IMG/VR virus record: IMGVR_UViG_3300032132_000001
Location: 298,573 to 362,572 of that record
Length of the DNA stretch: 64,000 nucleotides
Direction: 5' to 3' (one strand)
Source of the DNA: a virus
The notes below the pieces were generated by a model. It worked only from the letters and a program-made list of their open reading frames with translations. It was not told where the DNA came from and did no database searches. Every line of letters begins with the position of its first letter. The stretch's first letter is position 1. The translations under genes were made by a program, and so were the position numbers. This document shows positions 1 to 59,587 of the stretch, piece after piece.

Positions 1-629
1 ATAGCGACGCGCACCGTCTCGGCCTTCGCAGCACCAACCAGCCGATGATCGAACTGCATGGGAGATTCCATAGCTGTAGCTAGGACTGTTCCCTGGTAGT
101 CAGCTGTAAAGTCCATCAAGCCGAAGTCTAGGACTTGGAGCCCGTTCTTCACCTTGGCGATGTTCTGGATATCATCCAGAGCTGCCTGGGTTTCGATGAT
201 CACGTGAATTGGAACCACTCTACCGGGGGTCATACCCTGGATCTTGCTGGTCATCTCTAACAGTTGCTGCGCATTGTACACCTTAGGGATGGTGACATAT
301 GCGATCCGATGCCCCACTTCCTTCATCAGGGCACCTACTTCCTTCTTCCACCACTCATTGTGATAGTCGTGGATTCTAACGCCGACTTGATTGAACTGGT
401 TCTTGAAGGAGCTTACCACTTCGATAGCGTCATCGAGGTTTTCTTGCTCTCGGCCCTTTGGGGCGCCATCTTCAAGATCGAAGGTGATGTCAAACACAGG
501 TCCACGGTGGTTCTGCATTTCAAGCGCTTTCCAGGCGAATCGCTTGTTACCGCAGAAGTGTTCGCACACCGGAATGGTCGGTACGACTTTTACGTTGGTG
601 TCTACCAACGCTTCATCTGGATGGATCAT
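1..629 (-). CDS. HpcH/HpaI aldolase / citrate-lyase beta (CitE)-like enzyme. N-terminus at 629; the C-terminus runs off the window start
   Basis: Hand translation of the minus strand from ATG (627-629) gives MIHPDEALVDTNVKVVPTIPV...FDITFDLEDGAPKGRE...HVIIETQAALDD...LDFGLMDFTADYQG with no stop to position 1. The DLEDG, IIET and xFGxxDxxAD motifs are typical of CitE/HpcH (PEP/pyruvate TIM-barrel) enzymes. The start overlaps the upstream stop as ATGA. It is not in the ORF track because it is partial. Confidence 0.55.
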   Translation of the reverse strand, partial: MIHPDEALVDTNVKVVPTIPVCEHFCGNKRFAWKALEMQNHRGPVFDITFDLEDGAPKGREQENLDDAIEVVSSFKNQFNQVGVRIHDYHNEWWKKEVGALMKEVGHRIAYVTIPKVYNAQQLLEMTSKIQGMTPGRVVPIHVIIETQAALDDIQNIAKVKNGLQVLDFGLMDFTADYQGTVLATAMESPMQFDHRLVGAAKAETVRVA

Positions 630-1576
630 TTGGTCTTTAGTCTCCGTGTTAGGGCCTGCATCTGTTGGCTGAGATACACCTGGTTCTGAACATCTTCCAT
701 GTCAATACCGTTATAGAGGCAATGGCTCTTAATGTATTCTCTTAGAGAAGCGGCCCAATAAGGGGGTTCAAACCCTAGGCTTTCTATTTTGTCCGTCTTG
801 AGTCTAGAGTCATCTGGTCTCGCAACGTTGTTCCATTTCTCATCGTACTCTTCTCTGCTGATCTCTGTGACATCCCCTATTGAGCGATGATAGTATTTGG
901 CATAAAAGTGTGCGATTTGTTTGGCGAATTGGAACCTAGAAGCAGACCCGCCATCTACATAGTGGAATGTTCCACGATGACCGTTCCTGATGAGAAACTT
1001 AGTAGCTTCTACCAGATTTCTTGTGTTGGTCGGGTTTCCGATCTGGAAATCTGGTGCAGAGCAGGACCCAGAGATGTTTAGATAGCTCATGATCTTCTGG
1101 ACGAAGTTGTATTTATTTGGGCCGTAGAGCCAGGCGGTCCTTATAATTATATGGTTGTCTGGTAGAATATGCCTAATCTCGTTCTCCCCTGCCAACTTGG
1201 ATTTACCATATTCAGATAGTGGCAAGCAATCGTCTGTTTCTGAATATGGCGCGTCTTCTCCGTCGAACACGAAATCAGTGGAGAAGTGCACCAAAAGAGA
1301 TCTAGATTTCTTGCAAGCTTCGGCAAGATTCCTGGGACCGACCTGGTTTGTCAGCCAGCAATTCCGATCTTTTTCAGCACCGGGCACATCAGTGTATGCA
1401 GAACAATTTAAGACTATCTTTGGGATGCCAAGACCGCTTTCATAAATGGTGAAATCGACGTCCCTTTTTACCGAGACGTCGATCCCTACACTTCTTGATA
1501 TCCCAATTATAGATGGGTCGTCTGCTATGAACTCCTTACCCAGTTGGCCTATGCCAAATAGTAAGGTTTCAGGCAT
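626..1576 (-). CDS. rmlD: dTDP-4-dehydrorhamnose reductase (RmlD)-like NAD(P)-dependent sugar reductase
   Basis: Rossmann LLFGIGQLG N-terminus; HFSTDFVFDG and SEYGKSKLAGE (YxxxK) and IIRTAWLYG motifs match the RmlD family. I moved the start to internal Met55 of the track ORF (ATG overlapping the upstream stop as ATGCCTGA), which removes a 170-nt overlap. Confidence 0.7.
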   Translation of the reverse strand: MPETLLFGIGQLGKEFIADDPSIIGISRSVGIDVSVKRDVDFTIYESGLGIPKIVLNCSAYTDVPGAEKDRNCWLTNQVGPRNLAEACKKSRSLLVHFSTDFVFDGEDAPYSETDDCLPLSEYGKSKLAGENEIRHILPDNHIIIRTAWLYGPNKYNFVQKIMSYLNISGSCSAPDFQIGNPTNTRNLVEATKFLIRNGHRGTFHYVDGGSASRFQFAKQIAHFYAKYYHRSIGDVTEISREEYDEKWNNVARPDDSRLKTDKIESLGFEPPYWAASLREYIKSHCLYNGIDMEDVQNQVYLSQQMQALTRRLKTK

Positions 1577-2534
1577 CCTTGAAGCCTTCGGTCTCGGCTT
1601 GACGAGCCATCGCGTCTGCGTCGTACATCCTCTCGATTTCCTGATACTTCGGAATGTCGCCGAGAAGATGGTGTCCGGGGTACATGTCACCGCGCTTGTT
1701 CTCCAGGCGCAATTGGGCATCTTGCTCCCACTTCGCAAGATCTTTATAATGATCGATCATGCCGTAAGTGCCAGCGTGGATGCCGAACAAGGTGATAAAG
1801 ATGTACTTGTAGCCAATTTCGCCCAATTCCTTGAACGTGAGCGGGTCTTCTTCTTTCGACCATTTGAACGAAGAGGAGTAATTGAATGCGCCAATCATCT
1901 GTGGGTGCCGCTTGCGTACTTCTTCCATGAACTTGATGAGAGGCCCGCGTTTCGGGTCTGGTAGCTCGATCCAAAGCATATCCACACCTTGGTCTGCATA
2001 GGCTATGCCACGATCGATGGCATTTTGCAAGCCTCCACCCTGGGCTCCATAAGCGTCTGTCCGAGCGATGATGATGAAGTCGTCGTCTTTCTTGGCATCT
2101 ACAGCGGCTTTGTACTTCCCTGCCGCTTGGCGTAATGGGATAACCCGCTTTCCAGCGATATGGCCGCACCTTTTTGGTGGCCATTGGTCTTCGATGTGTA
2201 TCCCGGCGACCCCTGCCCGCTCAAATTCCTGGACAGTCATCTGGGTCTGAACAGCATCGCCATACCCAGTATCTGCATCTGAGATGAGCGGGATGTCAGT
2301 GACGGCTGTAATTCGTCTAGCACAATCTACAATCTCGCTGCGTCCATAGAACGCTAGATCTCCCTTGCCATAGTGAGCCAGGCCGAATGAATACCCAGAT
2401 AGGTAGTTCATCTTCATACCTTGAGACTCTGCTATCTTGGCAGTTAGAGGGCTATAACACCCTCCAGCGAAAACGTACGGTTCTTCTGCCAACATTTTGC
2501 GAAATTTAGCTGCCTGGCTCATGGTGCTCCTCAA
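1569..2534 (-). CDS. isocitrate lyase/PEP mutase superfamily enzyme, methylisocitrate-lyase (PrpB)-like
   Basis: ISDADTGYG, HIEDQ and the KRCGH active-site loop. The Cys-containing K[KR]CGH loop is characteristic of ICL/PrpB-type C-C lyases rather than PEP mutase. Length 321 aa. Confidence 0.6.
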   Translation of the reverse strand: MRSTMSQAAKFRKMLAEEPYVFAGGCYSPLTAKIAESQGMKMNYLSGYSFGLAHYGKGDLAFYGRSEIVDCARRITAVTDIPLISDADTGYGDAVQTQMTVQEFERAGVAGIHIEDQWPPKRCGHIAGKRVIPLRQAAGKYKAAVDAKKDDDFIIIARTDAYGAQGGGLQNAIDRGIAYADQGVDMLWIELPDPKRGPLIKFMEEVRKRHPQMIGAFNYSSSFKWSKEEDPLTFKELGEIGYKYIFITLFGIHAGTYGMIDHYKDLAKWEQDAQLRLENKRGDMYPGHHLLGDIPKYQEIERMYDADAMARQAETEGFKDA

Positions 2535-2553
2535 AGTAGGGCAAACATACGGT

Positions 2554-5643: not shown

Positions 5644-6351
5644 GTGCCCAAAGCCTTAGATCCAGTCCTCGACCTCTACATGAGAGATGTCGGTAGGTAC
5701 GACCTTCTTAGTAAAGAAGAAGAGCTTGAAACAGCTAATCGCGTAAAAGCTGGGGATAAACAAGCCGCAGAGCATATGGTGAACTGCAATCTGCGGCTTG
5801 TTATCCACATCGCAAAGAAGTACTCCAGGATGGGCTATCCTCTAGACGACCTAATTGCCGCTGGCAATATGGGCCTCATCAAAAGCGTAGGACGATTCGA
5901 CCCAGATAAGGGCTATCGATTCTCGACTTACGCCACCTGGTGGATCAAGCAAACGATTCGGAAGCATCTCAGTGACAAGACGAGGACTATCCGAATCCCA
6001 AGCTACCAGCTCTCCGGTCCAAATGCAGAAGAGGTCAAAGCGAGGACTGCGTGTACCTCTTTTGAAACGCTGATTGGCGTAGATATCGAAGACAGCTACG
6101 AGAAATGCGGCGGCTTCGAAGACGCGCAGATGCTACGTGAGCTGCTGGACAGTCTAGATAAAAGGAAGCGTTTCATCATCGAGATGCGCTACGGCATGCG
6201 CCAAGGGATCGTTTTCACGCTGGATAAAGTGGGCGAAACCTTGAAACTCAGCAGAGAGCGAGTAAGGCAGCTTCAAAAGGAAGCTCTGGTTGAGATGAGG
6301 GAGCTTGCTAGCAAGCTTGCCTGTGTAGGGCCAGGTAAGACTCTAGACTAG
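5644..6351 (+). CDS. RNA polymerase sigma factor, sigma-70 family (regions 2 and 4)
   Basis: DLIAAGNMGLIKSVGRFDPDKGYRFSTYATWWIKQTIRK (region 2.x; FSTYATWWI is near-canonical) and TLDKVGETLKLSRERVRQLQKEAL (region 4.2 HTH). GTG start with a GAGGT SD. Confidence 0.75.
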   Translation: MPKALDPVLDLYMRDVGRYDLLSKEEELETANRVKAGDKQAAEHMVNCNLRLVIHIAKKYSRMGYPLDDLIAAGNMGLIKSVGRFDPDKGYRFSTYATWWIKQTIRKHLSDKTRTIRIPSYQLSGPNAEEVKARTACTSFETLIGVDIEDSYEKCGGFEDAQMLRELLDSLDKRKRFIIEMRYGMRQGIVFTLDKVGETLKLSRERVRQLQKEALVEMRELASKLACVGPGKTLD

Positions 6352-9158: not shown

Positions 9159-9734
9159 CTAGAAGTTGCCTCTTTCATGGCGCAATCCACCTTCCGGTGA
9201 ATGTCCAACAAAGACCAGAACTTTATCCACATGTTGAATATCACGACCTTGGATCCAGCGATTCTTACGTATCATCCCTTTGAAATAGCGCTGATCTTGC
9301 AGCTGGCCCACATTAGCCCATAGAGCTTGGACAAACTCTCTTTTCACTGCGCAGCATGGCGTGGCGTAGCGGAGTCTTGGCCTCTCCGCATTGGCATCCA
9401 TCTTGACCGTAACCATCTTAGCTTTTGGATATTGATGGAAAGCTTCTACGATAGACGTTAGATATTCTGGATGCATAGAATCGTCATCATCGAAGAAGCA
9501 AATCACATCGCCAGAGGCGTATCTGACCCCACGGTTGCGGGCATAAGCCGCACTCTGCCTTTCTCTGTGGACGAAGCACTTTATCCTTGGATCTTCGAAA
9601 GAGTAGGGCTGCGATCCATCGTTGTCTACGATGATGAGAGACCAATCTTGGTGAGTCTGACCTAGGATGGTTTTGATAGTGTTGTCAATACAATGTTGAC
9701 GCTTGAATGTCGGCATGATAATGTCGAACTTCAT
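9159..9734 (-). CDS. family-2 glycosyltransferase (GT-A fold)
   Basis: IIMPTFKRQHCIDNTIKTILGQT...LIIVDNDGS...YARNRGVRYASGDVICFFDDDD matches the GT2 N-terminal pattern with a DXD motif. Confidence 0.7.
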   Translation of the reverse strand: MKFDIIMPTFKRQHCIDNTIKTILGQTHQDWSLIIVDNDGSQPYSFEDPRIKCFVHRERQSAAYARNRGVRYASGDVICFFDDDDSMHPEYLTSIVEAFHQYPKAKMVTVKMDANAERPRLRYATPCCAVKREFVQALWANVGQLQDQRYFKGMIRKNRWIQGRDIQHVDKVLVFVGHSPEGGLRHERGNF

Positions 9735-11325: not shown

Positions 11326-11571
11326 ATGGCTATTAGCACCAAGATCAACAAGTCTAAGCACTGGTTGGTAGAGAAGTCCAGAAAGCGTCTTCTCTGCCAC
11401 ATCGAGCAGATGCCGCGCCTACAATTCACCTCTGGCGACATCACCAGCTTCATCGCCGGAAGGACTACCTACGCCGAGGCTTGGCGTCTCATTCGCGAAG
11501 CGGGTTCCGTCCGTCGTGTCGGTGCACCTCGTGGGACCGCGACCCTCTGGCGGAGAGCGAAGCAGCAGTGA
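11326..11571 (+). CDS. hypothetical small basic protein (81 aa)
   Basis: Internal ATG of the track ORF 11191-11571, placed right after the upstream stop with a strong SD (TAAGGAGAC, 7-nt spacer); [21 protein letters not shown]... Confidence 0.4.
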
Positions 11572-12131
11572 AGTTCAAGAAACCATCGCTCTTCAAGCTG
11601 TGCACCAAAGATGAAGCTACGCTATCCTTACCCTCTTGGCCAGTAACTCTGGAAGAGGGTAAGGAGGTCTTGATCCGGCTGCATCAGCATTTCAACCCAG
11701 ATGAGGGAGTAGGTCTGGCTGCCCCTCAGCTTGGAATCCACAAACGGGTATGCATGATCCATATCTCGGATGACAAGTACCCTGGTGGGTTCAAGCTAGA
11801 CTTGGTCAACCCTATAATCAGAAGCACAGCAGGCGAGACCATTCGCCATAAGGAGATGTGCTTCTCGGTTAGTAAGAGAACTCAGTATGCTGTAGCCAGA
11901 CATACTGAGATCACCGTGGAAGATGACCTCAATGGGGCTGTAACAGTCTCTGGTTTTCCAGCGTTCGTGGTCCAACATGAAGTGGACCATCTTAATGGGA
12001 TTACCATTCGTGCTAAGGGTACCAAGGTCGGAATGCGCCCGATAGTACGTAATGACGTCAAGGTTGGGCGAAATGCGCCTTGCCCTTGCGGCAGTGGTAA
12101 GAAACATAAGAAATGCTGCGGAGACCTATAA
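11481..12131 (+). CDS. def: peptide deformylase with a C-terminal SEC-C zinc-binding motif
   Basis: All three PDF motifs are present: [10 protein letters not shown] (GxGLAAxQ), EMCFS (EGCLS equivalent) and QHEVDHLNG (HExxH). C-terminus [14 protein letters not shown] is the SecA-type SEC-C motif. The start is ambiguous (ATG 11481 or in-frame GTG 11568, the latter abutting the upstream stop). Confidence 0.8.
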
Positions 12132-12466
12132 TGGACCAGCAAGCTCTTGGTAACGATGTCTGGGTGAGGGTGCTACCACCTGACGAGAGAACACCTGGTG
12201 GGTTGATCCTGCAAAGTGCAGAGAGCAACATGGGTGAAATCGTCAACATCGGTCCGGAAGTCCACGAGAAGCAGAAGCTCTACAAACCAAGCCAGCGGGT
12301 AGAAGCTGGAGACTTTATCTGGCTTCCTCGCGGCTCAAAGCTCGGAGAGCAGTACAAGGTTGGGAAAGAGATCTATATTCTCCTCCCCTTCACGCACTGC
12401 CGGTCGAAGTTTACTTCCCAGACTTCTTCGACGACCGACGCTCAGCTTTCGGCAACTTCCGCTTAA
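12131..12466 (+). CDS. groES: GroES-like co-chaperonin (cpn10 fold)
   Basis: Start at the internal ATG overlapping the def stop (TAATG). DVWVRVLPPDERTPGGLILQSAESNMGEIVNIGPEVHE...VEAGDFIWLPRGSKLGEQYKVGKEIYIL follows the GroES pattern (V.V....TAGGI.L........G.V.AVG.G......V..GD.V.F.KYGG.E........Y.I). Confidence 0.55.
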   Translation: MDQQALGNDVWVRVLPPDERTPGGLILQSAESNMGEIVNIGPEVHEKQKLYKPSQRVEAGDFIWLPRGSKLGEQYKVGKEIYILLPFTHCRSKFTSQTSSTTDAQLSATSA

Positions 12467-13043
12467 CCATTACCTTGTCGGCGAACCCGTACTTCACTGC
12501 TTCTTGAGCAGTGAAGTACTTGGTGTTCCGGTACATCTCCAAGAACTCTTTCTTGAGCATGCCCGTCCGTTCAAGGTAGATCTTGTGGACTGTCTGCTCC
12601 ACCTTCTTGGAGTGGTCTGCATAGGCTACTAGTTCCTTCGGAGTTCCCCAGAAGGATTCCTGGCCATCGTGTATCATCATGATAGCGTGTGGAGCCATGA
12701 TTCTTATGTCTGCGGCCTGGAAGATGATACTACCCATGCTCATGCAGTAGCCATATGCAGTGATGGTTACTCGGCAAGGGGAATTGCGAATAGCGTCGTA
12801 GACTGCCATGCCATGATAGTAGTCCCCGCCTGGGGAGTTCATAGTGACAGTGATCGGGTCCTTCGACACTGAATTCAGGATTGTGAACGATTTGATTGCC
12901 ATTTCAGCAATCTCGGCAGTCAACTCGTCGTCGTCGTCACTTCCAATGTAGATGTTTCTGTTTTCGACATCTAGATGATAATCGAAATAGCGCTTGATTC
13001 CTGCGTCTCGATCTTTGGGTTGCTTCCCTTCAGTCATCGCCAA
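12411..13043 (-). CDS. ClpP-family serine protease (S14)
   Basis: TVTMNSPGGDYYHGMAVYD...ITAYGYCMSMGSIIF...IMMIHDGQ aligns to the ClpP INSPGG / ICxGxAASMG / MIHQP blocks (Ser and His present). Convergent 56-nt overlap with the groES-like gene. Confidence 0.7.
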   Translation of the reverse strand: MAMTEGKQPKDRDAGIKRYFDYHLDVENRNIYIGSDDDDELTAEIAEMAIKSFTILNSVSKDPITVTMNSPGGDYYHGMAVYDAIRNSPCRVTITAYGYCMSMGSIIFQAADIRIMAPHAIMMIHDGQESFWGTPKELVAYADHSKKVEQTVHKIYLERTGMLKKEFLEMYRNTKYFTAQEAVKYGFADKVMVKRKLPKAERRSSKKSGK

Positions 13044-15167: not shown

Positions 15168-18100
15168 ATGAAACGACGTCTTATCAAGAACAAGAAGCTT
15201 GGATTCGTGGTCCGAGAGGCCGCTCCAGAAGATCCAGATCCAGAGTTCATCGAACCGGAAGATCTACCGGACGCGCCACGCCAGACTCACCGTGCTGGCG
15301 AGAAGTATATTGACCCTGATAAAAAGGACCCCGGAACCCCCATGGGCAAGGCCCGCAGGGATATTCCAGCAGGTCGGGGCCTACCAGCTGTCAAGAAGGG
15401 AGACCCGATACTATATCCTGGCCCTGGGCCAGAGAGACGGGAAATGGCTGCGCAGATGAAAGCGCAGCAAGAAAGGCGACCACAAGACATTGCAAAGGAA
15501 TTCGATAGCCAGTCTGTAATTGATGACGCCAATATGATCCATGGCCAGACCAAGCTGCGGACGAACCATCTAGCTCATCTAAACAAACTGCTTGACTGGG
15601 AAGGGGCTGAGGACGACACACGGGCTGCTGAAGCTAAGGGCGCGGTAATGCGTGCTATCACCAGGCACTCCGAAGCGCTGGCAAACCCGAAAAACGAAAA
15701 GCAAGAGAGCCTTTCCGACGAGATCGTCAGCAAGCTGAAAATCGCAGCGGCGTCAGCTGACGATCCAGATCTAGAAGGAATGGATCAAATAGAGGCAGAT
15801 GAACTATCTGCCAAGGCTACCAAAGCACTTGAACTAATAAGTGGAGATCTAATCTCGGTCGATGATTCCGAGATGGACGATTTCGAAGATATCCTCCCTG
15901 GCTTGGAGCGCGGTGAAAACGAGACCGACGAAGAGTGGATTGCTAGACTGAACGAACGCTATCGTCCACCGGAAGTAGATGAAGACACATGGCAAGAGTT
16001 CGATGACCTATTCATGGGTAAAGTGGATCCAGAAACTGGAGCACTAGACACTCTAACAAGGCAGGACATCACCTCAATAGAAAAAGCCAATGAGATGTCT
16101 ACCATTCGCGCAAGCGGTGATGGAGATCCGGAGCGTGAAGCCGCAGCGGGAATGAAGACCAGCTTGAAGCCTTACAAGACATTTATGAACAATGTCATGG
16201 CTATCAAGCAGGTAGATGACTACGACAAAAGGCGAGAACTGTTCAACAAGTACGCAACAGGCTTCGTGGCGTACATGAACCGCTATTCAGTCACAAACAT
16301 CGAAGACATTAAGACTGTAAGAGACCATGAGCGGGCTTGGAATAGCGTTGCCAGAAAGATTCTAACTATGGGTGGCGACCCGCGCCACATTAACCTTCTA
16401 GAAGAAGAGAATCGTCTAGACGCTTTCTCTAGAGACCTCATCAACATCGTGTCGTTCTACAGTCAAGAATCTGATGACAAGAATCTTAGTGCTATCTGGG
16501 ACGAGGAAGGCATTCTTCAACGTGTTGAGTACTATGAGGAGAAAGCTGCACCCCTAAGGCAGGCTCACAAAGCTGCAGAAAAGCAGAGAAGAAGTTGGGA
16601 TACTCAGGCTGAGAGAACCAAAGAAGAACTGAGAGGTGTTGGTAAGGAAGACCAAAAAGCCCGAAAGGCTGCAAAAGCCAAAAAGGAAAGAGCCGAGAAG
16701 TTCCAGGAAACTTGGACTGAGAAAGCAGAAGAAGCTAAGTCTAATCTGGATATAGTCCAAAAGCATATCGATTTCTACAGTGGTGCAGCTCAGCGATTCA
16801 CGGAACTCAAGGATCGCCAGCGAAACCAGCAGGAATCTTTTGCGTCTAGTTTGGTTGGTATCTCTAGTAGGCCAGAAGAATATCAGCAACTAATGACAGA
16901 GGTACAAGCTCTAAAGAATAGCGAAGAGCGTATTAAGAGGCAAGGTGGTAGAGCATGGTCAGTGCTTCAGGCAGCAGAGAAGAACTTCCAAGGTGTCCCT
17001 CCCCTTTCTGACAGCATGCTGAACACGCTAGGGCACCGCACTGGCAGCTTTGCAGCAAGGAAGGACCTAGAAGACCAGCTCCTCGCCATTTCGGAGACAG
17101 GACAGCTCTGGAACCCAGAAGATCCGGACTCTGAAGAACAACGGACAAAGCTTGTAGACCAGATTCAATCGTTGGAGAAATATTCAGAACTATTGGCTCT
17201 GCATGCAGAGCTTCTTGATGGAGTCTCTAAGCTAATCCCTCAAGAGTTGGGACTAGATGTAGAAGATCTACAAAGAGAACCTGTTAAGTTCCTGCAAGCT
17301 CTTGCTAGCTTCAAAGAGGCAGCAGACCAATCTGCAGCTGCGGGAGATCCACAGGCAGAAGAGAGATCAGCCCAAGCCGATAGACTTGAACAAGCTTCTA
17401 CCCAATTGGCCAATGTCCGTACTCAGGTAGCTGAAAAAGCAGACATCATGGGTCACATCGACGTGGAGTGGATGGGATCTGGCCTAGACAAAGACGATGA
17501 CGAACTGAAGGGTCACGGCGGTGGAATCGAGCGTCTAGTTGGCATTCTACGTCACATTTTGGAAAATGATGGTCAAGTACCACCAGAAGTTAGAACTGAT
17601 ATGGCCAACCAACATGGCCGACTAAAAGAGAGATTAGAAGGGGAAGTAGAGTCGCTCAAGCGTATCGCAGCGATCCGTGTACGAATGGAGAACTCCAAGT
17701 CGGATCTGGAGGTGTTCAATAGGTCGCTACAAGAGCTACACCAGGAAATCAAGAAGCTTGGAATCGTACGAAAGTACAAGGCGCACGACGAGCTATTGCG
17801 TCTGCTAGAGCAGTCGGAACCAAAATACAACGAAGATAGCTTCCATCAAGCAGTGGAACATTGGAAAAGCTTGGCTGGAGCTTCAAAAGACCGGAAGCGT
17901 CTAAGAAACGTGATGGCTCTCCAGAAGGAGCTTGGGTCCCACGAGCCGGGAAGCGACAGCTGGAAGAACATCTATTCCCAAATCCAGGAAACGATCGACC
18001 AAAGCGGCCTTGGCGACGAAATCATTCCATCAGAAGAAGACGAAGAAGACTCAGAGTTCATGGACGTGCCGGAAGGTATGACCGCCGATGAGCTAGATGA

Positions 18101-21100
18101 CTACGAAGAGGAAAACGCTCCTACTTCTATCAACAAGGCTTTGGGTAAAGCAAAAGGCGACTTCGACCCGGCGTCGTTCAGCAAAGCAATGAAAGAATGG
18201 GACCGTCTGAAACTGTCCCATGATGTCACTTCCGGGAAGGGAGAGGTAGGTGAATTCCTAAACACCTACATGGCTCAATTCAACAAGCCGATGTCCTACC
18301 AGATCATCCCTCTGGGCGCTGGTTATGTTGCGATTATCGACATCAGAATCAAGAAGCTAAAAGATCTATACCATTATCTTGAGCAGATTCGTACTGGGAA
18401 AGATGATCCGGCAGATAAAGAGTCTGAAGATCTTCCTAGCGGCATAAAAGAGCAAACTGCCGCTGCGAAGGCTAAAGAGGAATTCAGAAAGAAGGCTATT
18501 AAATCTGGCGAAATCGACCCGAACGATCCAGAAGAGAATAGAATCGACTCGGCCGACCTGTTCAACGCCCTTGGATCTCATAAGTATAAGGTAGTTGGAT
18601 CGGCCGCTCGCCGCGCTGACACATGGCAGAAGTACGGCACATTCCAGAAGCTGGTAGAGGCGCAAGAAAAGGTCCGCAAGAAAGTTGGTGACCTATTGGA
18701 CCAACTATATGGCATAGGCCAATGGCACAAAGCTCTAAAAGACCCAGAATTGCATTTGCCGCCGGGGCTGTTCCATGCTACTGGGCCAATTCGACCAGAA
18801 GACCTCACCGACAGAGGTGCTAGCCAGGGTGTGCGAGTAGAGACTGCCCCAGAAGACAAGCTGGTCGGTCTCAACACTATGCAGCAACTACATCGAAAGA
18901 GTGAAGGAAAGGCTCTAAAGGCTGAAGCGAGAAGAGCAGAAGCAGAAGAAGAGATCGCTATACTAAGGAATGCTACTCCAAACAGATTAAAGCAGAGTGG
19001 TGTTCACCTTGGGTGGGATAGTAATATTCCATATGAAAAACTCGCTTTCATGTACCAAGATACTGATTCGCCATTTTATTACAAAACTGTGAGGAACCAG
19101 CTCGCTAAACTATCTCTCCAAGGTAGTGGTGGGTCAGTAGATGAAAGGAATCTTCATAGGCGCTTGAGGAAGCTTGAAGGCCGTGCTAAGCATGCAAGAA
19201 AGATGTCTAAGATCGCTCGGTCTAAAGAGAAAGCTTGGAGGAAGCAACTTCTGTTCCTCGGAGCGCTGGCAGATGAACGCCCTGACCTATCTCCAGAATA
19301 TCTCAAAAGAAGAAGAGTGGAGATTGAGCGCAAAATAACTGAGTACAACAGTGAAAGGCGCGCATTCAACGTGAAAGTTCGTGATGTTCGCGAAGAGATC
19401 AAACAGTACAACTCTGCTAGCTGGCAAGATCTGAACACACGAGATAGGAGCAAGACCAAATCAAAGTCTGGAGGTCTGCTTGCGCCAGATGAAGTTCACC
19501 TAGCGTACGGGTTTGTTGAATATGTTACCAATACTATCAAGAAACTGGAAGGGAGAATCACTGCCGCTAATAACTCTTTGATAGGTGCCAACCAGAAGAG
19601 TACGATCGACGCCAAAAAGAAAGCGATGCTGAAGAATGCCATCAACTATCTGCTGGGAGGGCGCGATTCGTCTGGCGAAGAGATCCCGTTACACACAGTA
19701 ACAGAATATGGCCCGGACCAGAACAAGACGGTAATGTTCAACCCGGTGGTGGAGATGTATGGCTTGCGCCCATATGCCGGTAAGGGCGAGTATATGCCAC
19801 ATATCCCTCACAGGTACATGAGCGAAGAAGAAATAGACAACCGCACAATGTACTCTGCGTTGGATGCTTGCATCGATCAGCTGGCTACGATCGTTTCCGA
19901 TGTCGTACTCTACCTGATGGGTCACGGCAAGCTAATGGTTCGTGGTCATGGGTTTGCCACCGAACGTGGTTGGGCTTTCCTTCTTGCTGGTGTAGTCCAA
20001 CCATCAGCTGGCAAAGCAGGCCCAGGAAAAGCAACCGCCCTACAGAGAATTGGTCGCGACCATCTCTACTCAGTACAACTAGAAACCGAAGCGCGGGCCC
20101 TCTGGAGAGAAGGCGACGTAGACAATATCGAGATCCTATCTAAGCTCTTGAATGCTCACAGATTGAGCCGACCAAAGGGCTTTGAAGATGCGAATCTTCA
20201 ATCATTCCACCTAGCAGAGCATCTTGATAACTTCGTCGCCGATGAAGAAGGCGAAGAAGCTGAAGTAGATCAAGAGGGAATAAGGCAGCTAGCTGGAGAC
20301 GTAAGCTACAGTACAATCAAGGGTGTGATCTCTTCCTACGATAGAGTCCTGAAGAATGCTAATGAAGCTAAGGAAGCTGCGGCTGCCAGAATAGAAGAAG
20401 CACTCGAAGAAAGTGGAGAAACTCTTGAAGGGGATGAATTAGAAGATGCTATCGAAGAAGAGTGGAAGAAAGATGGGTACGGGTCCGCTATTCGATCTCT
20501 TAATTTCTACTCTAGGCTCAACGATGGTTTCAGTGAAGATGAAGCCAAAGAAATGGCAGATCGCGCTGACGGACCGAACAATCCGAGTGTCATTCAAAGG
20601 CGTCTAGAGCAAGCTGGAACGATGGAAGAGGAGCATCTTAGAAGAGTAACTTTCGCTAAGGAAGCTATCAGGCGAGCGGTGGCGGGTGCTGGATCGGTTT
20701 CTCCGCGCCTTCTCCGAAAGATCTACACTTCTGGTACCGGAGTCCTCAAATCGGTACTAGACGATTTCAAGGATGAACAATCAGCTGGCGCGAGCATCGG
20801 CGAAAGACGAGAGAAGATCAGCCATGCGATCGCTATGAATGATACTCGCGCATCTCGGATGGATGGCAATGTAGAGATGATAACTCCAAATATGGAGGCA
20901 GCCCAGGAGGCAGGAGATGAAGCGCTAATCAAGCACTATGCTTCATATATTGAAGCATGGGAAGATCACGCCGTCGAACTGCGAAATGAAATCGCTGAAC
21001 TTCAAGTACAAGATAGAGAGCTTGCTAAAAAGGGAGAAGATCTACCAGGCAAGGAACTCAACATAGATGGAATTAAGCACACGCTCAATTGGCATCGCGC

Positions 21101-23156: not shown

Positions 23157-25285
23157 TGCTCATTTTCACCACCGGAAGGATCAAGAGGGTTCTTAGCGAA
23201 GCGGACATTTCCGTAAAGTCTGGTAGCCAAAGAGGTTCGACCGAACCAGGCTCCCCGACGTCCCTCAGACTAGAAGCAGACCTAATTTTTTCAGGTCAAG
23301 AGTATACACGCCTGAAGCAAGAATTCCAATCAGAGCATGAGTCGGAATTCGATGATATCAGGATGAAGCTTGAGGAAATGCTGGGTCAGCCCTATGGTGA
23401 TCCTCCTCGCTCTCTTTCCAAGACTCAGGTTAGAAATCTGCTGTCGGCGCTAAGAGATGTTCACCAAGGGAGCTACAAAGACTGGCGCAAAAAGTACAAG
23501 GATGAACCCCCGAAAGAGAAGCACTATACGGACCGCCCACGGCGAGGAAAGATCAAGAAAGACAGCGACAGAATAGTATATGAGCTAGATTCTTCTGATC
23601 AATTGCAAGAGATTGTACTATTCCTCAACAAGATGGCAAGTGACCCAGATAGAATCCTGAATCTGCAGAACATGCTGAAGCAAGTATATGGCACTGAAAC
23701 TTATCCTTCAAGCGTCTTCTTCCGACAGCTAGAAGATCAAGTAAACGCAGGAGATCAAGAAGTTGTAGATCAATCGTTCCCAGAGGACGAAATAGAAGCT
23801 TTGTCGATGGGTCAATGGGTACTCCTCAAGTCTCTTGTAAACAGGAGGAGATTTATAAAGTCATTGAAAGTGTTCGATAGACGATACAATGATAGAGATA
23901 AGACAAGCAAAGAATCGCGCTCTGCTCTTCGCAAATATGCAGGTGCGATCCGCGACTTAGCTGGTAGAGTTAGTGCCTCTGTAGTGCCAACTAAGACCGT
24001 CCAATTCAGCATAATACCAGATGCTGAAACTGGACACTTCATCGTGCGGAAGTTCATCAATTCCGGCGGCGAAACAAGTACAATAGACACCACCGAAGGC
24101 CCAAGCGGCCCGATTGTGGCTCGTCACCAAAAAGGTGATCCCAATTGTGCTACTGCGATAGTTAGAGCCCAAGCCTCTACTTACAAAAAGCAAGGGTACG
24201 AAAGAAAGAAGGAAGAATACAGGGAAGATGATGAGGTCCATGAGCTTCTCAAGAAGACTTCCAAACTATTCGGATCGGGTTTCGATCAGTTCGTTGTAGA
24301 CCAACACCAGAAGAAGCTCGCTGACAAAATAAAAGAAGAGTTCGCTCCAATGAGCGAGCCTTGGCAGTTAGTCTTCCTAGGCGAACATGGAGACCAAATC
24401 GGTCGATTCAAGGCTTTGTACGGTAGAGCTGAAGATAGAGTATATGCTATCAAGGCTGAGTCGTCTGTCGCTTTGGGAAACAAGTTCGCAGAGCTACTAG
24501 AGAAAGAGCTAAGAGGACAAGATTTTAGCATAGCCAGATTGGCAGATCCTCTCCCCAACAGCAGACCGAATGGATTTGTATTCCAAACGTCGCTAGATGG
24601 AATTACCGATGTGGCTGCCGGATTAGACAGGCTGGATGATGAAGAACAGCCTGATATCGAAATCTTCCTACCTGGCATCAAGCATATGATTGCCACTGTA
24701 GTGCAAGATATGCTATATGACTACGAAGACACTCATGGGCCAAGCGAAGAACCTATCCCAGAGTATGAAGCTCTCCAGATGGATGATAGGACTAGGAAGA
24801 TATTCAGGAAATGGTTCAGTAAAAGACAAAGACCATTCGCTATCGATCACAATATGATAAAAATCGAAGGTGGCGAGATTGTTGCCCCTATCGGTGCGAA
24901 TCCGCAACCAGAGAAGGAAGTAGATCCGGAACTTGCTAATAATCCGGAAGTGCAAGATCTAATGGCGATCTTGCGTGGAGAAAAGAAGGGCGAGATCCAA
25001 GATTTCGGCCAGTGGGAACTCCACCGGATGTTCAAAGACCTACAAGATGCATCTACAGATCAAGAGGGAAACCCTATCAACTGGGCTAAAGTTGCACAAG
25101 ACTTGGGTCTAAGGAAAAAGACCCGAGATGAGTTAGAGAAAGAAGTCCAGAAGACAATGGACATCGGGAGATCTGGCCCACGACCGGAATATGTATCAAA
25201 GCCTGAGGAAGAACTGGAAGATCTCCCAGAATCTAAGATAATCGATGTGATCGCCGATCACACCCCGGAACATCCATCATGGTAG
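23156..25285 (+). CDS. large acidic hypothetical protein (709 aa)
   Basis: Start overlaps the stop of the giant gene (TAATG); D/E/K-rich. Confidence 0.6.
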   Translation: MLIFTTGRIKRVLSEADISVKSGSQRGSTEPGSPTSLRLEADLIFSGQEYTRLKQEFQSEHESEFDDIRMKLEEMLGQPYGDPPRSLSKTQVRNLLSALRDVHQGSYKDWRKKYKDEPPKEKHYTDRPRRGKIKKDSDRIVYELDSSDQLQEIVLFLNKMASDPDRILNLQNMLKQVYGTETYPSSVFFRQLEDQVNAGDQEVVDQSFPEDEIEALSMGQWVLLKSLVNRRRFIKSLKVFDRRYNDRDKTSKESRSALRKYAGAIRDLAGRVSASVVPTKTVQFSIIPDAETGHFIVRKFINSGGETSTIDTTEGPSGPIVARHQKGDPNCATAIVRAQASTYKKQGYERKKEEYREDDEVHELLKKTSKLFGSGFDQFVVDQHQKKLADKIKEEFAPMSEPWQLVFLGEHGDQIGRFKALYGRAEDRVYAIKAESSVALGNKFAELLEKELRGQDFSIARLADPLPNSRPNGFVFQTSLDGITDVAAGLDRLDDEEQPDIEIFLPGIKHMIATVVQDMLYDYEDTHGPSEEPIPEYEALQMDDRTRKIFRKWFSKRQRPFAIDHNMIKIEGGEIVAPIGANPQPEKEVDPELANNPEVQDLMAILRGEKKGEIQDFGQWELHRMFKDLQDASTDQEGNPINWAKVAQDLGLRKKTRDELEKEVQKTMDIGRSGPRPEYVSKPEEELEDLPESKIIDVIADHTPEHPSW

Positions 25286-25954: not shown

Positions 25955-26623
25955 ATGAAGCTCAAATCTTCAGTCCAACGCCGGGCTACCATAACTGAAT
26001 CACGGAAGCCCTATAGCGCCTCTTCTCTCGGTTTTGCGTACGACGCTCTAGAACCGTACATTGACGCCGAAACCATGAAGATCCACTACTCCAAGCATTA
26101 TATTGGATATTTGGAGAATCTCAACAAGGCGATGAAAGGTGTACCTACCAAGAATCGCAAGACAGTAAAAGCTCTACTTGAGAACTTTAGTAGCCTACCG
26201 AAGACTCTCAGTGACACCCGGAAAGAGACCATCAAGTTCAACGCGGGCGGAGTGGACAACCACAACGTCTTCTGGGCCAACATCGCCCCCGGAGGTGCCG
26301 TACGACCTCACGGAGAGCTTCTTTCAGCTATCACCGCCAGTTACGGCACTCTGAAAAAGTTCAAACAGCGTTTCTCAGAGCAGGCAGGAGACCATAGAGG
26401 CAGTGGTTGGTGCTGGCTGGTGAAGAAGAGTGGCGGGTTAGGAATCGTATTGACCACCGACCAGCACAGTCCCAGATTGAGTGGATGGGACCCGATTTTG
26501 GGTCTAGACGTCTGGGAACACGCCTACTATCTAAAGTACAAGAACGATCGAAAGAAGTATATCGATAATTTCTGGAAGATTGTTAACTGGAGCGACGTCG
26601 CTTCGCGATTCGCTGTAGCCTAG
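25955..26623 (+). CDS. sodB: Fe/Mn superoxide dismutase with an approximately 20-aa N-terminal extension
   Basis: AYDALEPYID...KIHYSKHY (compare SodB EYHYGKHH), NHNVFWANIAP, and the DVWEHAYYLKY Fe/Mn-SOD signature; metal ligands His/His/Asp/His appear conserved. Confidence 0.8.
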   Translation: MKLKSSVQRRATITESRKPYSASSLGFAYDALEPYIDAETMKIHYSKHYIGYLENLNKAMKGVPTKNRKTVKALLENFSSLPKTLSDTRKETIKFNAGGVDNHNVFWANIAPGGAVRPHGELLSAITASYGTLKKFKQRFSEQAGDHRGSGWCWLVKKSGGLGIVLTTDQHSPRLSGWDPILGLDVWEHAYYLKYKNDRKKYIDNFWKIVNWSDVASRFAVA

Positions 26624-37635: not shown

Positions 37636-37677
37636 TGTCGTAGTATTTTGACACTAAGTCCTAAAGAGGAGGCCCGT

Positions 37678-57736: not shown

Positions 57737-59587
<1,851 letters not shown>

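What the first reader, a model, noticed from the sequence alone, without database searches (positions are those of the whole stretch)
1..2534. Two PEP/pyruvate TIM-barrel C-C lyases (CitE/HpcH-like and PrpB-like with KRCGH) chained by ATGA overlaps to rmlD
Three leftward genes are translationally coupled (ATGCCTGA and ATGA junctions): a methylisocitrate-lyase-like enzyme with the Cys-containing KRCGH loop (so a lyase, not a PEP phosphomutase), an RmlD-type NAD(P)H sugar reductase, and a CitE/HpcH-type aldolase. A pair of distinct PK-TIM-barrel C-C lyases wrapped around a nucleotide-sugar reductase is not a standard operon in organic-acid metabolism or in rhamnose synthesis. It could build an unusual acidic or branched sugar substituent (which fits the glycan-tailoring theme elsewhere in the window), or rewire host TCA/methylcitrate flux.
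Basis: partly seen in the sequence, partly recalled or inferred. Interest (0 to 1): 0.6.

Follow-up and report, generated by a model that had tools for sequence, protein, structure and literature searches.

The report
Huge-phage glyoxylate-bypass pair plus sugar reductase
The three overlapping genes are real, but the two "lyases" are best read as a phage-carried isocitrate lyase and a malyl-CoA-lyase-like partner, a compact glyoxylate-bypass pair that recurs in several huge phages; the rhamnose-type reductase between them is an insertion seen only in this phage.

Summary
Observation confirmed. Three minus-strand genes (2522-1569, 1576-626, 629-<1) overlap by ATGCCTGA and ATGA. They lie in a huge phage (contig at least 397 kb).

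Interpretation partly supported.
- Gene 1 is not PrpB-like. It belongs to a compact (~320 aa) isocitrate-lyase family found in Rokubacteria and Halobacteriales. It keeps KRCGH and the ICL succinate-site motifs (NYSSSFKW, ITLFGIH) that PrpB lacks.
- Gene 3 (full length 328 aa, recovered) belongs to the uncharacterised CitE clade of PDB 3QQW/3R4I. It keeps all five catalytic residues of malyl-CoA lyase and malate synthase. Its nearest characterised folds are malyl-CoA lyases.
- The ICL and CitE-like genes co-occur in four phage lineages: adjacent, one gene apart, or 5 kb apart. Each forms a virus-specific clade.
- The RmlD-type gene occurs only here. It looks like a sound nucleotide-sugar 4-ketoreductase, one of several scattered glycan genes in this genome (Gmd, Fcl-like, glycosyltransferases).

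Best reading: a glyoxylate-bypass auxiliary module, ICL making glyoxylate and the CitE-like enzyme condensing it with acetyl-CoA. A 2025 preprint already reports ICL/"malate synthase" pairs in huge phages, so this is a variant of a known kind and has no biochemical test. A glycan-building role is not excluded.

The parts
1569..2522 (-). Gene A: compact (short-type) isocitrate lyase, 317 aa, ICL/PEPM superfamily, catalytic loop K117-R118-C119-G120-H121
   Evidence: Pfam PEP_mutase and ICL. Below every NCBIfam equivalog cut-off. About 50% identity to a large ~323-aa family named 'isocitrate lyase' by its sources. ICL-type residues are kept (Y40, S42, G43, H109, R154, E186, N214, S216, S218, T244), whereas PrpB differs at the C-terminal motifs (MtICL residue list from PMC9026967). 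Part of a viral clade inside the short-ICL family.
626..1576 (-). Gene B: RmlD-type NAD(P)H-dependent nucleotide-sugar 4-ketoreductase homologue, 316 aa. It has a GxGxxG motif instead of GxxGxxG and a ~30-aa extra C-terminal helix. Found only in this phage among the pair-bearing contigs.
   Evidence: RmlD_sub_bind E=1e-55. TIGR01214 scores 185 bits, below the 224 cut-off. Best homologues are only 35-40% identical. T100/Y123/K127, W149 and R253-P254 are conserved. AF2 pLDDT 91.5; TM 0.91 and rmsd 1.5 A to RmlD 1VL0. No relative was found in L003, L005, L094 or L132, nor in 160 prokaryotic loci.
1..629 (-). Gene C (N-terminal 209 of 328 codons; the remainder lies left of the window): CitE/HpcH-superfamily CoA-ester C-C lyase of the PDB 3QQW/3R4I clade, malyl-CoA-lyase-like
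   Evidence: Full length from L001:11894-12880. 3QQW E=3e-90, 3R4I E=5e-72, malyl-CoA lyase 4L9Y E=1e-11. Catalytic residues D51, R85, E146, D173 and D293 align with Asp42, Arg76, Glu141, Asp168 and Asp299 of R. sphaeroides MCL (with PMC3832036). AF2 pLDDT 92.9; after 3QQW/3R4I the next Foldseek hits are malyl-CoA lyases. Viral clade supported 100/100.
1569..1576 (-). ATGCCTGA junction: start of gene B overlaps the stop of gene A (8 nt)
   Evidence: Read directly from the sequence.
626..629 (-). ATGA junction: start of gene C overlaps the stop of gene B (4 nt)
   Evidence: Read directly from the sequence.
2526..2531 (-). GAGGAG Shine-Dalgarno sequence, with a 4-nt spacer (2525-2522+1) before the ATG of gene A. 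Only 31 bp separate gene A from the divergent gene that starts at 2554.
   Evidence: Sequence; gene calls on L001.

Best explanation
The locus is an auxiliary metabolic module of a huge phage, with a lineage-specific insertion.

- Gene A is a compact isocitrate lyase. It would split isocitrate into succinate and glyoxylate.
- Gene C is a virus-specific branch of an uncharacterised CitE-family clade, built like a malyl-CoA lyase or malate synthase. It would condense that glyoxylate with acetyl-CoA to (S)-malyl-CoA. Malate would follow by the enzyme's own hydrolysis or by a host thioesterase.
- Together they form a two-enzyme glyoxylate bypass. This would spare carbon from the CO2-releasing TCA steps and feed C4 acids to biosynthesis during infection. 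The pairing of a short ICL with a CitE-superfamily enzyme resembles what I recall of the haloarchaeal ace genes (not checked here).
- Gene B, wedged between them and translationally coupled, is an intact RmlD-type nucleotide-sugar 4-ketoreductase. It most likely serves the phage's separate, scattered glycan-tailoring toolkit rather than the organic-acid chemistry.

Shown here: the gene structures, family placement, conserved catalytic residues, folds, recurrence of the ICL/CitE-like pair in other phages, and the absence of RmlD there. Inferred: substrates, reaction direction, hydrolysis to malate and physiological role.
For: 1. ICL identity. The N-terminal half resembles all superfamily members, but the C-terminal half matches only ICL models. 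Alignment A1 shows ICL motifs SGY / KRCGH / ARTD / WxE / NYSSSFKW / ITLFGIH. PrpB has GGG / ITEFGST / YPLSAFR at the discriminating positions. The residues correspond to MtICL Tyr89, His180, Lys189-His193, Arg228, Glu285, Asn313, Ser315, Ser317 and Thr347. The family has 447 genome hits, including Halobacteriales. Malate synthase is adjacent in L002, L021 and L081.

2. Gene C. All five catalytic residues shared by malyl-CoA lyases and malate synthases are kept. The lid residue is Asp, not the Glu of the thioesterase clade. The nearest characterised folds are malyl-CoA lyases (TM 0.72-0.76), ahead of CitE and citramalyl-CoA lyases. In 80 metagenomic loci its bacterial relatives lie directly after mesaconyl-CoA hydratase in 65. 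A canonical PrpB follows directly in 39 of 40 loci with an ICL/PEPM-superfamily neighbour (8 read and confirmed as PrpB; the 40th, L132, is a short ICL upstream). This fits beta-methylmalyl-CoA cleavage to propionyl-CoA plus glyoxylate, that is, a glyoxylate-handling enzyme.

3. The pair is the conserved unit. ICL and the CitE-like gene co-occur in this phage, L003 (5 kb apart), L005 (one unrelated gene between), L094 (adjacent) and L132 (an 81-aa ORF between). Viral ICLs are monophyletic (70/100) and viral CitE-likes are too (100/100). In 80 prokaryotic short-ICL loci no CitE-superfamily gene lies within 8 kb.

4. Precedent. An aceBA operon was reported in a marine T4-like viral genome (PMC5332604). 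[quoted passage not shown]

5. RmlD as a separate function. It is absent from the other pair-bearing contigs. Its triad and fold are intact. The window also encodes Gmd (463 bits, above the 415 cut-off), an Fcl-like synthase, APS kinase, an FkbM methyltransferase and glycosyltransferases, all scattered rather than clustered.
Against: - No enzyme of either the short-ICL family or the 3QQW clade was assayed here, and I found no published assay for the 3QQW clade.
- Malate synthase adjacency is rare for the short ICL (3 of 81 prokaryotic loci). Its commonest neighbour is a LysR-type regulator (from a noisy ORF caller).
- I did not verify that the genetically proven H. volcanii ICL belongs to this family.
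- The glyoxylate-site Trp93 of canonical ICL is Tyr here.
- The bacterial context of gene C's relatives points to beta-methylmalyl-CoA/propionyl-CoA chemistry and methylcitrate-cycle coupling, not to malate synthesis.
- No thioesterase was seen near the phage genes.
- In L094/L132 the pair is embedded among five glycosyltransferase genes. Here it brackets a sugar reductase with translational coupling. Both favour a glycan role.
- Whether the preprint's 'malate synthase' is this CitE-like family could not be checked.
Confidence: 0.5

Rival explanations
1. Glycan-building trio. The ICL-like and CitE-like enzymes supply or attach an acidic C2-C4 unit (glyoxylate-, malyl- or succinyl-derived) to a nucleotide sugar or glycan, and the RmlD-type reductase prepares the sugar.
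For: In L094/L132 the pair sits inside a run of GT4, GT2, GT2, a methyltransferase, GT1-like and GT4 genes, with a glutamine-synthetase-like gene in L094. In this window the pair brackets an intact sugar-nucleotide reductase with overlapping start and stop codons. The phage is rich in glycan genes.
Against: The RmlD gene is absent from every other pair-bearing contig. L005 and L003 show no glycan genes around the pair; the neighbours there are ThyX, MazG, patatin, NYN and TROVE. The glycan genes of this phage are scattered, so adjacency to one of them carries little weight. Both enzymes keep the complete active sites of free-acid and CoA-ester lyases. To my knowledge no glycan pathway uses an ICL.
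Confidence: 0.12
2. Propionate / C5-dicarboxylate route rather than a glyoxylate bypass. Gene C acts as a beta-methylmalyl-CoA or citramalyl-CoA lyase, as its bacterial relatives probably do. Gene A acts as a methylisocitrate lyase or bifunctional ICL/MICL. Together they process propionyl-CoA or mesaconate-type carbon in the infected cell.
For: Bacterial members of gene C's clade are flanked by mesaconyl-CoA hydratase (65 of 80 loci) and PrpB (39 of 80 loci by similarity, 8 of them read and confirmed). A Pseudomonas locus adds a family-III CoA transferase and methylaspartate ammonia-lyase. Gene A's best NCBIfam score is to PrpB (179 bits).
Against: The phages carry no mesaconyl-CoA hydratase, PrpC or PrpD near the pair. 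Gene A has ICL-type residues, not PrpB-type, at the succinate/methyl pocket, and it is below the PrpB cut-off (179 against 354 bits). The viral CitE-like clade is well separated from the bacterial clade and has its own fixed substitutions, for example Glu instead of His next to catalytic Asp293.
Confidence: 0.15
3. The neighbours are unrelated. The three genes are independent auxiliary genes that merely sit together in a variable region, and ICL alone carries the metabolic effect (for example succinate or glyoxylate production).
For: The preprint finds ICL in 98 huge phages but 'malate synthase' in only 22. In L003 the two genes are 5 kb apart. Gene order in this genome does not follow pathways.
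Against: All five viral contigs found with this ICL clade also carry the CitE-like gene. The two gene trees have similar topologies. In prokaryotes the two families are not neighbours, so the viral association is specific.
Confidence: 0.1
4. The three genes are a recent host-derived fragment, or a decaying one, with no phage function.
For: All three have cellular homologues. The RmlD-type gene is divergent at its N-terminus.
Against: Identity to any cellular homologue is at most 53%, 50% and 40% respectively. Codon usage and GC content match the phage. There are no flanking repeats. The ORFs are intact with conserved catalytic residues and confident folds. Both lyases form virus-specific clades.
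Confidence: 0.02

Closest known systems
Virus-encoded glyoxylate shunt genes: the aceBA operon in a marine T4-like environmental viral genome (PMC5332604), and ICL plus 'malate synthase' pairs in huge phages (bioRxiv 10.1101/2025.02.27.640493)
   Same: A phage carries an isocitrate lyase next to, or one gene away from, a glyoxylate-condensing enzyme. The genomes are huge. The same auxiliary-metabolism logic is proposed.
   Different: The ICL here is the compact ~320-aa type, not AceA. The partner gives no match to the malate synthase Pfam model and belongs to the CitE/3QQW clade. Whether the preprint's 'malate synthase' is this same family could not be checked. An RmlD-type gene is inserted here.
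Haloarchaeal glyoxylate cycle genes (Haloferax volcanii aceA/aceB; HaloMS structure 3OYZ)
   Same: As I recall it, a short ICL is paired with a CitE-superfamily enzyme instead of malate synthase A/G. The short-ICL family found here includes Halobacteriales members at 47-49% identity. The viral ICL clade branches next to them in the NJ tree.
   Different: Gene C is not HaloMS. It belongs to the 3QQW/3R4I clade (328 aa). No CitE-superfamily gene was found beside the haloarchaeal short ICLs sampled. That H. volcanii AceA itself belongs to this short family rests on my memory and was not tested.
Malyl-CoA lyase (Mcl1) plus malyl-CoA thioesterase (Mcl2) route of Rhodobacter; trifunctional malyl-CoA lyases of Chloroflexus and Roseiflexus (4L9Y, 4L80, 6KIN)
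   Same: Same fold with a C-terminal lid and the same five catalytic residues. These are the nearest characterised structural neighbours. The chemistry links glyoxylate with acetyl- or propionyl-CoA.
   Different: Only about 17-23% identity. Far below the NCBIfam equivalog cut-off (52 against 500 bits). No thioesterase partner was seen in the phage.
Bacterial mesaconyl-CoA hydratase / 3QQW-type lyase / PrpB gene cluster (uncharacterised; PDB 3QQW Reut_B4148 and 3R4I Bxe_B2899)
   Same: Gene C belongs to this family (46-50% identity; E=3e-90 to 3QQW). The bacterial members also pair a CitE-like lyase with an ICL/PEPM-superfamily lyase.
   Different: The bacterial partner is a canonical PrpB placed downstream, together with a hydratase. 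The phage partner is an ICL-type enzyme placed upstream, with no hydratase. The viral proteins form a separate clade.
dTDP-4-dehydrorhamnose reductase RmlD (1VL0, 3SC6, 1KBZ)
   Same: Same fold (TM 0.91, rmsd 1.5 A). Thr/Tyr/Lys triad present. Conserved Trp149 and Arg253-Pro254.
   Different: Only 35-40% identity. Below the TIGR01214 cut-off. GxGxxG replaces GxxGxxG. It has an extra C-terminal helix. No rmlA, rmlB or rmlC was found in the ~84 kb inspected. The sugar substrate is unknown.

Membership tests
Isocitrate lyase (ICL, EC 4.1.3.1) | Catalytic loop K-[KR]-C-G-H with the general-acid Cys | tested here: met
   K117-R118-C119-G120-H121, invariant in alignments A1 and A2.
Isocitrate lyase (ICL, EC 4.1.3.1) | Succinate-site residues Asn313/Ser315/Ser317/Thr347 (MtICL numbering; motifs NxSxSFxW and ITL) | tested here: met
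   N214, S216, S218 (NYSSSFKW) and T244 (ITLFGIH). PrpB has ITEFGST and YPLSAF at these positions. Residue list from PMC9026967.
Isocitrate lyase (ICL, EC 4.1.3.1) | Glyoxylate/Mg site (Tyr89, Ser91, Gly92, Trp93, His180, Arg228, Glu285) | tested here: inconclusive
   Y40, S42, G43, H109, R154 and E186 are kept, but Trp93 is Tyr44 in the whole short family.
Isocitrate lyase (ICL, EC 4.1.3.1) | Score above the curated NCBIfam equivalog cut-off | tested here: not met
   TIGR01346 scores 122 against 276 bits; NF011645 scores 129 against 562 bits. The short family lacks the AceA N-terminus and two insertions.
Isocitrate lyase (ICL, EC 4.1.3.1) | Isocitrate cleavage activity | not testable with these tools
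   Needs an enzyme assay.
Methylisocitrate lyase PrpB | Equivalog score and PrpB-type C-terminal half (ANITEFGxTP, YPLSAFRA) | tested here: not met
   TIGR02317 scores 179 against 354 bits, and the match covers only residues 4-186. The C-terminal motifs are ICL-type.
PEP mutase / phosphonate enzymes | Equivalog score; loop without the catalytic Cys | tested here: not met
   TIGR02320 scores 97 against 320 bits; TIGR02321 scores 92 against 374 bits. The Cys119 loop is present. That PEP mutases lack the loop Cys is from general knowledge.
Malate synthase A/G (AceB/GlcB) | Match to the malate synthase TIM-barrel model PF01274 | tested here: not met
   Gene C matches only PF03328 HpcH_HpaI. tblastn with Salmonella AceB and with the L002 malate synthase finds nothing beside CitE-like genes.
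Malyl-CoA lyase / CitE-like superfamily | Asp42, Arg76, Glu141, Asp168 and lid Asp299 (R. sphaeroides numbering) | tested here: met
   D51, R85, E146, D173 and D293, invariant in A3 and A5. Definition from PMC3832036.
Malyl-CoA lyase / CitE-like superfamily | TIM barrel with a swapped C-terminal lid; closest characterised fold | tested here: met
   AF2 pLDDT 92.9. Foldseek: 3QQW/3R4I first, then malyl-CoA lyases at TM 0.72-0.76. The trimer and lid swap themselves were not modelled.
Malyl-CoA lyase / CitE-like superfamily | Equivalog-level sequence membership (for example NF041626) | tested here: not met
   52.5 against 500 bits.
Citrate lyase beta subunit CitE | Equivalog score and partner genes citD/citF | tested here: not met
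   No TIGR01588 hit for the phage protein. No citD- or citF-like genes among the called genes in the ~84 kb inspected.
dTDP-4-dehydrorhamnose reductase RmlD | SDR Thr/Tyr/Lys triad and RmlD fold | tested here: met
   T100, Y123 and K127 are invariant. TM 0.91 to 1VL0.
dTDP-4-dehydrorhamnose reductase RmlD | Equivalog score; N-terminal GxxGxxG | tested here: not met
   TIGR01214 scores 185 against 224 bits, and the profile match starts at residue 52. The motif is F7-G8-I9-G10-Q11-L12-G13.
dTDP-4-dehydrorhamnose reductase RmlD | Genomic company of rmlA/rmlB/rmlC | tested here: not met
   None in the window or its 10-kb flanks. Only Gmd and an Fcl-like gene (the GDP-sugar route) are present. The rest of the 397-kb genome was not seen.

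The most novel reading that the evidence does not exclude
The three translationally coupled genes work as one pathway that decorates a phage or host glycan with an organic-acid unit. ICL and the CitE-like enzyme would make a glyoxylate- or malyl-CoA-derived donor, and the RmlD-type reductase would prepare the acceptor sugar. This would explain why the pair sits inside a glycosyltransferase cluster in the marine relatives L094/L132. It would be the first use of an isocitrate lyase in glycan biosynthesis.
Probability: 0.08. Interest if true: 0.8.

Novelty: new variant of a known kind. Interest (0 to 1): 0.4.

Why it matters
Virus-encoded glyoxylate-shunt genes have been noted only in surveys, and nobody has shown that they work.

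This locus gives a concrete, compact and testable version. It pairs a 317-aa ICL with a 328-aa CitE-family enzyme, and each belongs to a virus-specific clade kept together across several huge-phage lineages.

If the CitE-like enzyme does condense glyoxylate with acetyl-CoA, huge phages carry a bypass that resembles, as I recall them, the haloarchaeal ace genes. It might also account for some of the huge phages reported with an ICL but no recognised malate synthase; I could not test that.

As a by-product, the strongly conserved bacterial arrangement (mesaconyl-CoA hydratase, 3QQW-type lyase, PrpB) gives a functional lead for two orphan structural-genomics entries, 3QQW and 3R4I.

Against this, the general idea is already published. 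Nothing here overturns known biochemistry. The role of the RmlD-type gene is probably mundane.

Tried and rejected
- DNA search of 8 kb against GenBank phages found no match.
- Single-protein scans of IMG/VR for genes A and C found nothing. Profile scans found one contig.
- PHROGs gave no hit for genes A and C.
- I first concluded that the close relative L003 lacks the CitE-like gene. tblastn later showed it at the contig end, so I withdrew that conclusion.
- The 248-aa gene between ICL and the CitE-like gene in L005 is not an RmlD relative. It has only a weak trypsin-like hit.
- Neighbourhood clustering around prokaryotic short ICLs with a home-made ORF caller was noisy in high-GC genomes. 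It gave only a LysR regulator as a recurrent neighbour. I replaced it with targeted tblastn and HMM searches.
- Haloplanus ICL neighbours are an ABC transporter and AzlD, not a malate synthase.
- PEP-mutase/phosphonate reading: rejected on scores and the Cys loop.
- CitE proper: rejected.
- Recent host fragment: rejected.
- The promoter and terminator scan was uninformative.
- The preprint's supplementary tables as held did not contain the ICL/malate synthase list.
- The afdb50 fold library was unavailable. BFVD gave no true match.
- A first phylogeny script timed out and I rewrote it.

Full report
**What is there**

The left end of the window carries three minus-strand genes.
- Gene A runs from ATG 2522 to TGA 1569 (317 aa). 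A GAGGAG ribosome-binding site lies at 2531-2526.
- Gene B runs from ATG 1576 to TGA 626 (316 aa).
- Gene C starts at ATG 629 and runs off the window at base 1.

An exact-protein look-up places the window on contigs of 177 kb and 397 kb from metagenomes. Their genes are typical of huge phages:
- sigma-70, NUDIX, ClpP, Cpn10 and peptide deformylase;
- TROVE/Ro60, a tail protein, and ORFs of 2662 and 1223 aa.

No GenBank phage is similar at the DNA level.

The missing part of gene C was recovered from L001:11894-12880, giving 328 aa. GC content and codon usage of the three genes match the rest of the phage. No flanking repeats were found. The three genes are therefore old residents of the genome, not a fresh host fragment.

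**Gene A is an isocitrate-lyase-type enzyme, not a PrpB**

Pfam and NCBIfam place it in the ICL/PEPM superfamily, below every equivalog cut-off. The N-terminal half scores best with PrpB. The C-terminal half (residues about 160-265) matches only ICL models.

About 50% identical homologues form a very large family of ~323-aa proteins that their sources name 'isocitrate lyase'. A genome scan found 447 members. They occur mainly in Rokubacteria/Methylomirabilota, but also in Binatia, Dehalococcoidia and Halobacteriales archaea.

I aligned the protein with Salmonella AceA and a PrpB.
- The short family lacks AceA's first ~45 residues and two insertions.
- It keeps Y40/S42/G43, H109/E111, K117-R118-C119-G120-H121, R154 and E186.
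- Decisively, it keeps N214/S216/S218 (NYSSSFKW; AceA has NCSPSFNW) and T244 (ITLFGIH; AceA has ITLAGIH).
- These are the MtICL residues Tyr89, His180, Lys189-His193, Arg228, Glu285, Asn313, Ser315, Ser317 and Thr347 that bind isocitrate and succinate (PMC9026967).
- PrpB differs at exactly the last two motifs (ITEFGST, YPLSAFRA).
- One difference from canonical ICL is that Trp93 is Tyr in the whole short family.

Malate synthase lies beside the short ICL in three bacterial loci (L002, L021, L081). This is uncommon. A LysR-type regulator is the most frequent neighbour, although that result came from a noisy ORF caller.

**Gene C is a malyl-CoA-lyase-like member of an orphan CitE clade**

The full protein matches two structural-genomics entries of unknown function. 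These are 3QQW (Reut_B4148, E=3e-90) and 3R4I (Bxe_B2899, E=5e-72). It matches R. sphaeroides malyl-CoA lyase only distantly (E=1e-11).

The HMMER alignment to 4L9Y can be read with the residue definitions of Zarzycki and Kerfeld (PMC3832036). All five residues shared by malyl-CoA lyases, CitE-like enzymes and malate synthases are present:
- D51 = Asp42
- R85 = Arg76
- E146 = Glu141
- D173 = Asp168
- D293 = lid Asp299

The lid residue is Asp, not the Glu of the thioesterase clade.

An AlphaFold model (pLDDT 92.9) hits 3QQW and 3R4I first. Malyl-CoA lyases of Roseiflexus, Rhodobacter, Chloroflexus and Methylobacterium come next (TM 0.72-0.76). They rank ahead of M. tuberculosis CitE and citramalyl-CoA lyases. 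The model has no real counterpart among BFVD viral structures.

The protein is not a malate synthase A/G; it matches only PF03328. It is not citrate lyase beta either.

**What the bacterial relatives of gene C do**

I examined 80 metagenomic loci of the family.
- In 65 loci a mesaconyl-CoA hydratase homologue is present, in most cases lying 12-60 bp upstream.
- In 40 loci an ICL/PEPM-superfamily gene lies beside the lyase.
- In 39 of these it lies 12-156 bp downstream and shows PrpB-level similarity. The eight I read in full are canonical PrpB (KRCGHRPNK, ANITEFGSTP).
- The fortieth locus is L132, the marine phage relative, where a short ICL (49% identical) lies upstream instead.

A Pseudomonas locus adds a family-III CoA transferase, and methylaspartate ammonia-lyase lies nearby.

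The simplest reading is inferred, not shown. Under it the clade cleaves beta-methylmalyl-CoA into glyoxylate and propionyl-CoA, and the propionyl-CoA enters the methylcitrate cycle. The characterised malyl-CoA lyases named bi- and tri-functional in PMC3832036 also interconvert malyl-CoA with glyoxylate and acetyl-CoA. Glyoxylate is thus the metabolite that links gene C's family with an ICL.

**The conserved unit in phages is ICL plus the CitE-like gene, without RmlD**

Profile scans and look-ups found the two genes together in four further viral or virus-like contigs.

| Contig | ICL identity to window | CitE-like identity to window | Arrangement |
|---|---|---|---|
| L003/L004 (close relative) | 76% | 56% | About 5 kb apart, with TROVE and other genes between |
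| L005 | 55% | 49% | One unrelated 248-aa gene between; neighbours ThyX, MazG, patatin, NYN |
| L094 (IMG/VR, 192 kb) | 46% | 46% | Directly adjacent |
| L132 (about 90% relative of L094) | 49% | 46% | An 81-aa ORF between |

None of these contigs has an RmlD relative. Neither do any of the 160 prokaryotic loci examined.

In neighbour-joining trees the viral ICLs form one clade inside the short-ICL family (70/100; family 94/100). That clade branches next to the haloarchaeal sequences. The viral CitE-likes, together with one unassigned 1.5-kb contig protein, form a clade with 100/100 support, apart from all bacterial members. They carry fixed differences, such as Glu in place of His next to catalytic Asp293.

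In 80 prokaryotic short-ICL loci no CitE-superfamily ORF lies within 8 kb. The association is therefore specific to these phages and old. The two genes appear to have been inherited together while their spacing and the intervening gene changed.

**Gene B**

The RmlD-type protein is an orphan. Its best homologues are ordinary RmlDs at 35-40% identity. It scores 185 bits against the TIGR01214 cut-off of 224, and the profile match begins at residue 52.

It nevertheless looks functional.
- The Thr100/Tyr123/Lys127 triad, Trp149 and Arg253-Pro254 are invariant in the alignments.
- The nucleotide-binding motif is GxGxxG (G8-I-G10-Q-L-G13, with Phe at the usual first Gly).
- The AlphaFold model is confident through the Rossmann part (pLDDT 88-94).
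- The model superposes on C. acetobutylicum RmlD at TM 0.91 and rmsd 1.5 A. It has an extra, less confident C-terminal helix at 293-315.

The window also encodes other glycan-related genes, scattered over 60 kb rather than clustered:
- a bona fide GDP-mannose 4,6-dehydratase (31782-32789; 463 bits against a cut-off of 415);
- a GDP-fucose-synthase-like SDR (62453-63412);
- an APS kinase and an FkbM methyltransferase;
- at least two glycosyltransferases.

No rmlA, rmlB or rmlC was seen in the ~84 kb inspected.

I therefore read gene B as one more nucleotide-sugar tailoring enzyme that happens to be inserted into the ICL/CitE-like pair in this lineage. Its substrate is unknown. Translational coupling by overlapping codons is, in my experience, routine in tightly packed phage genomes and does not on its own show shared function.

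**Most likely mechanism**

ICL would produce glyoxylate and succinate from isocitrate. The CitE-like enzyme would condense glyoxylate with acetyl-CoA to malyl-CoA. Malate would form by intrinsic hydrolysis, as I recall for the haloarchaeal CitE-superfamily malate synthase, or by a host thioesterase.

This amounts to a glyoxylate bypass that conserves carbon for C4 and biosynthetic precursors during infection. Only family placement, residues, folds and co-inheritance are shown here. Substrates, direction and physiology are inferred. I give this reading about 0.5.

The rivals are:
- a role in propionyl-CoA/C5-acid metabolism, mirroring the bacterial relatives (0.15);
- a glycan-building role (0.12), supported by the glycosyltransferase-rich setting of the pair in L094/L132 and by the RmlD insertion here;
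- independent functions for the three genes (0.1);
- a host-derived remnant (0.02).

**Comparison with what is known**

Phage glyoxylate-shunt genes are not new as an idea.
- aceAB reads were noted in ocean viromes (PMC4053976).
- An aceBA operon was described in a 179-kb marine T4-like genome (PMC5332604).
- A 2025 preprint on huge phages reports 98 ICL and 22 'malate synthase' genes. [quoted passage not shown] That pattern fits what I see.

I could not establish whether that preprint's 'malate synthase' is the CitE-like family described here. If it is, this locus is simply another member. If it is not, the CitE-like enzyme may be the unrecognised second step in ICL-only huge phages.

Relative to canonical aceBA, this is a variant. 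It has a short ICL and a partner from the 3QQW CitE clade instead of AceB. As I recall them, the nearest cellular parallel is the haloarchaeal ace genes, but I did not verify that H. volcanii AceA (shown genetically to be required for growth on acetate, PMC7746861) belongs to the short family.

**Verdict**

The locus is a new variant of a known kind of phage auxiliary metabolism. It is untested biochemically and of moderate interest (0.4).

Noticed in passing
window 31782-32789 (+) and 62453-63412 (+): A true GDP-mannose 4,6-dehydratase (TIGR01472, 463 bits against a cut-off of 415) and a GDP-L-fucose-synthase-like SDR (263 bits, below cut-off) lie 30 kb apart. The phage appears to encode a GDP-6-deoxyhexose route in scattered genes.
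   Followed up: partly
window 58566-59144 (+), 60525-61232 (-), 9159-9734 (-), 50352-51362 (+): Adenylyl-sulfate (APS) kinase, an FkbM-family methyltransferase, a GT2 and a GT1-like glycosyltransferase. Together they form a glycan or sulfation toolkit dispersed through the window.
   Followed up: partly
L001:20265-20337 (-), about 8 kb left of the window; window 35945-36625 (+): An amber-suppressor-type tRNA (anticodon CUA; Rfam tRNA 65 bits; ARAGORN calls it 'Pyl') lies in the same phage that encodes a short PCRF/RF-1-like protein (226 aa). This hints at manipulation of UAG decoding. The long ORFs in the window read through normally with the standard code.
   Followed up: no
L001:15013-16650 (-) with L001:17211-17282 and 17401-17475 (-): A TROVE/Ro60 homologue (also present in relative L003) is followed by a ~950-bp gene-free gap. 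The gap holds two tRNA-like elements called by ARAGORN, one with a 4-base anticodon, neither reaching Rfam's tRNA threshold. This could be a Y-RNA-like partner of the phage Ro60.
   Followed up: no
L096-L175 (metagenomic loci), e.g. L104:6940-10009: The bacterial gene order mesaconyl-CoA hydratase, 3QQW-type CitE-like lyase, canonical PrpB is strongly conserved. The hydratase is present in 65 of 80 loci and a PrpB-like gene in 39 of 80 (8 read and confirmed). This is a functional lead (beta-methylmalyl-CoA lyase feeding the methylcitrate cycle) for the orphan PDB entries 3QQW and 3R4I.
   Followed up: partly
L094:386-12696 and L132:657-8993: In two marine huge-phage contigs the ICL/CitE-like pair sits in a same-strand run of GT4, GT2, GT2, methyltransferase, GT1-like and GT4 genes. 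L094 additionally has a glutamine-synthetase-like gene that L132 lacks.
   Followed up: partly
window 25955-26623 (+), 27661-28638 (+), 37648-38502 (+) and 57038-57736 (+): Further auxiliary genes are present: Fe/Mn superoxide dismutase, adenosine deaminase and two patatin-like phospholipases.
   Followed up: no
window 15168-23156 (+), 23156-25285 (+), 33058-35844 (+), 45256-48927 (+): Very large ORFs (2662, 709, 928 and 1223 aa) have no Pfam family on record. They are presumably structural or injected proteins of the huge phage.
   Followed up: no
window 2523-2553: Only 31 bp separate the start of the ICL gene from the divergent gene starting at 2554. Neither transcript can have a conventional intergenic sigma-70 promoter there, and the consensus scan found none.
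   Followed up: no
window 5644-6351 (+), 11568-12131 (+), 12131-12466 (+), 12411-13043 (-): A sigma-70 family factor is present, together with a cluster of peptide deformylase (carrying a SEC-C motif), a Cpn10-like protein and ClpP. The phage carries proteostasis and transcription genes near the metabolic module.
   Followed up: no
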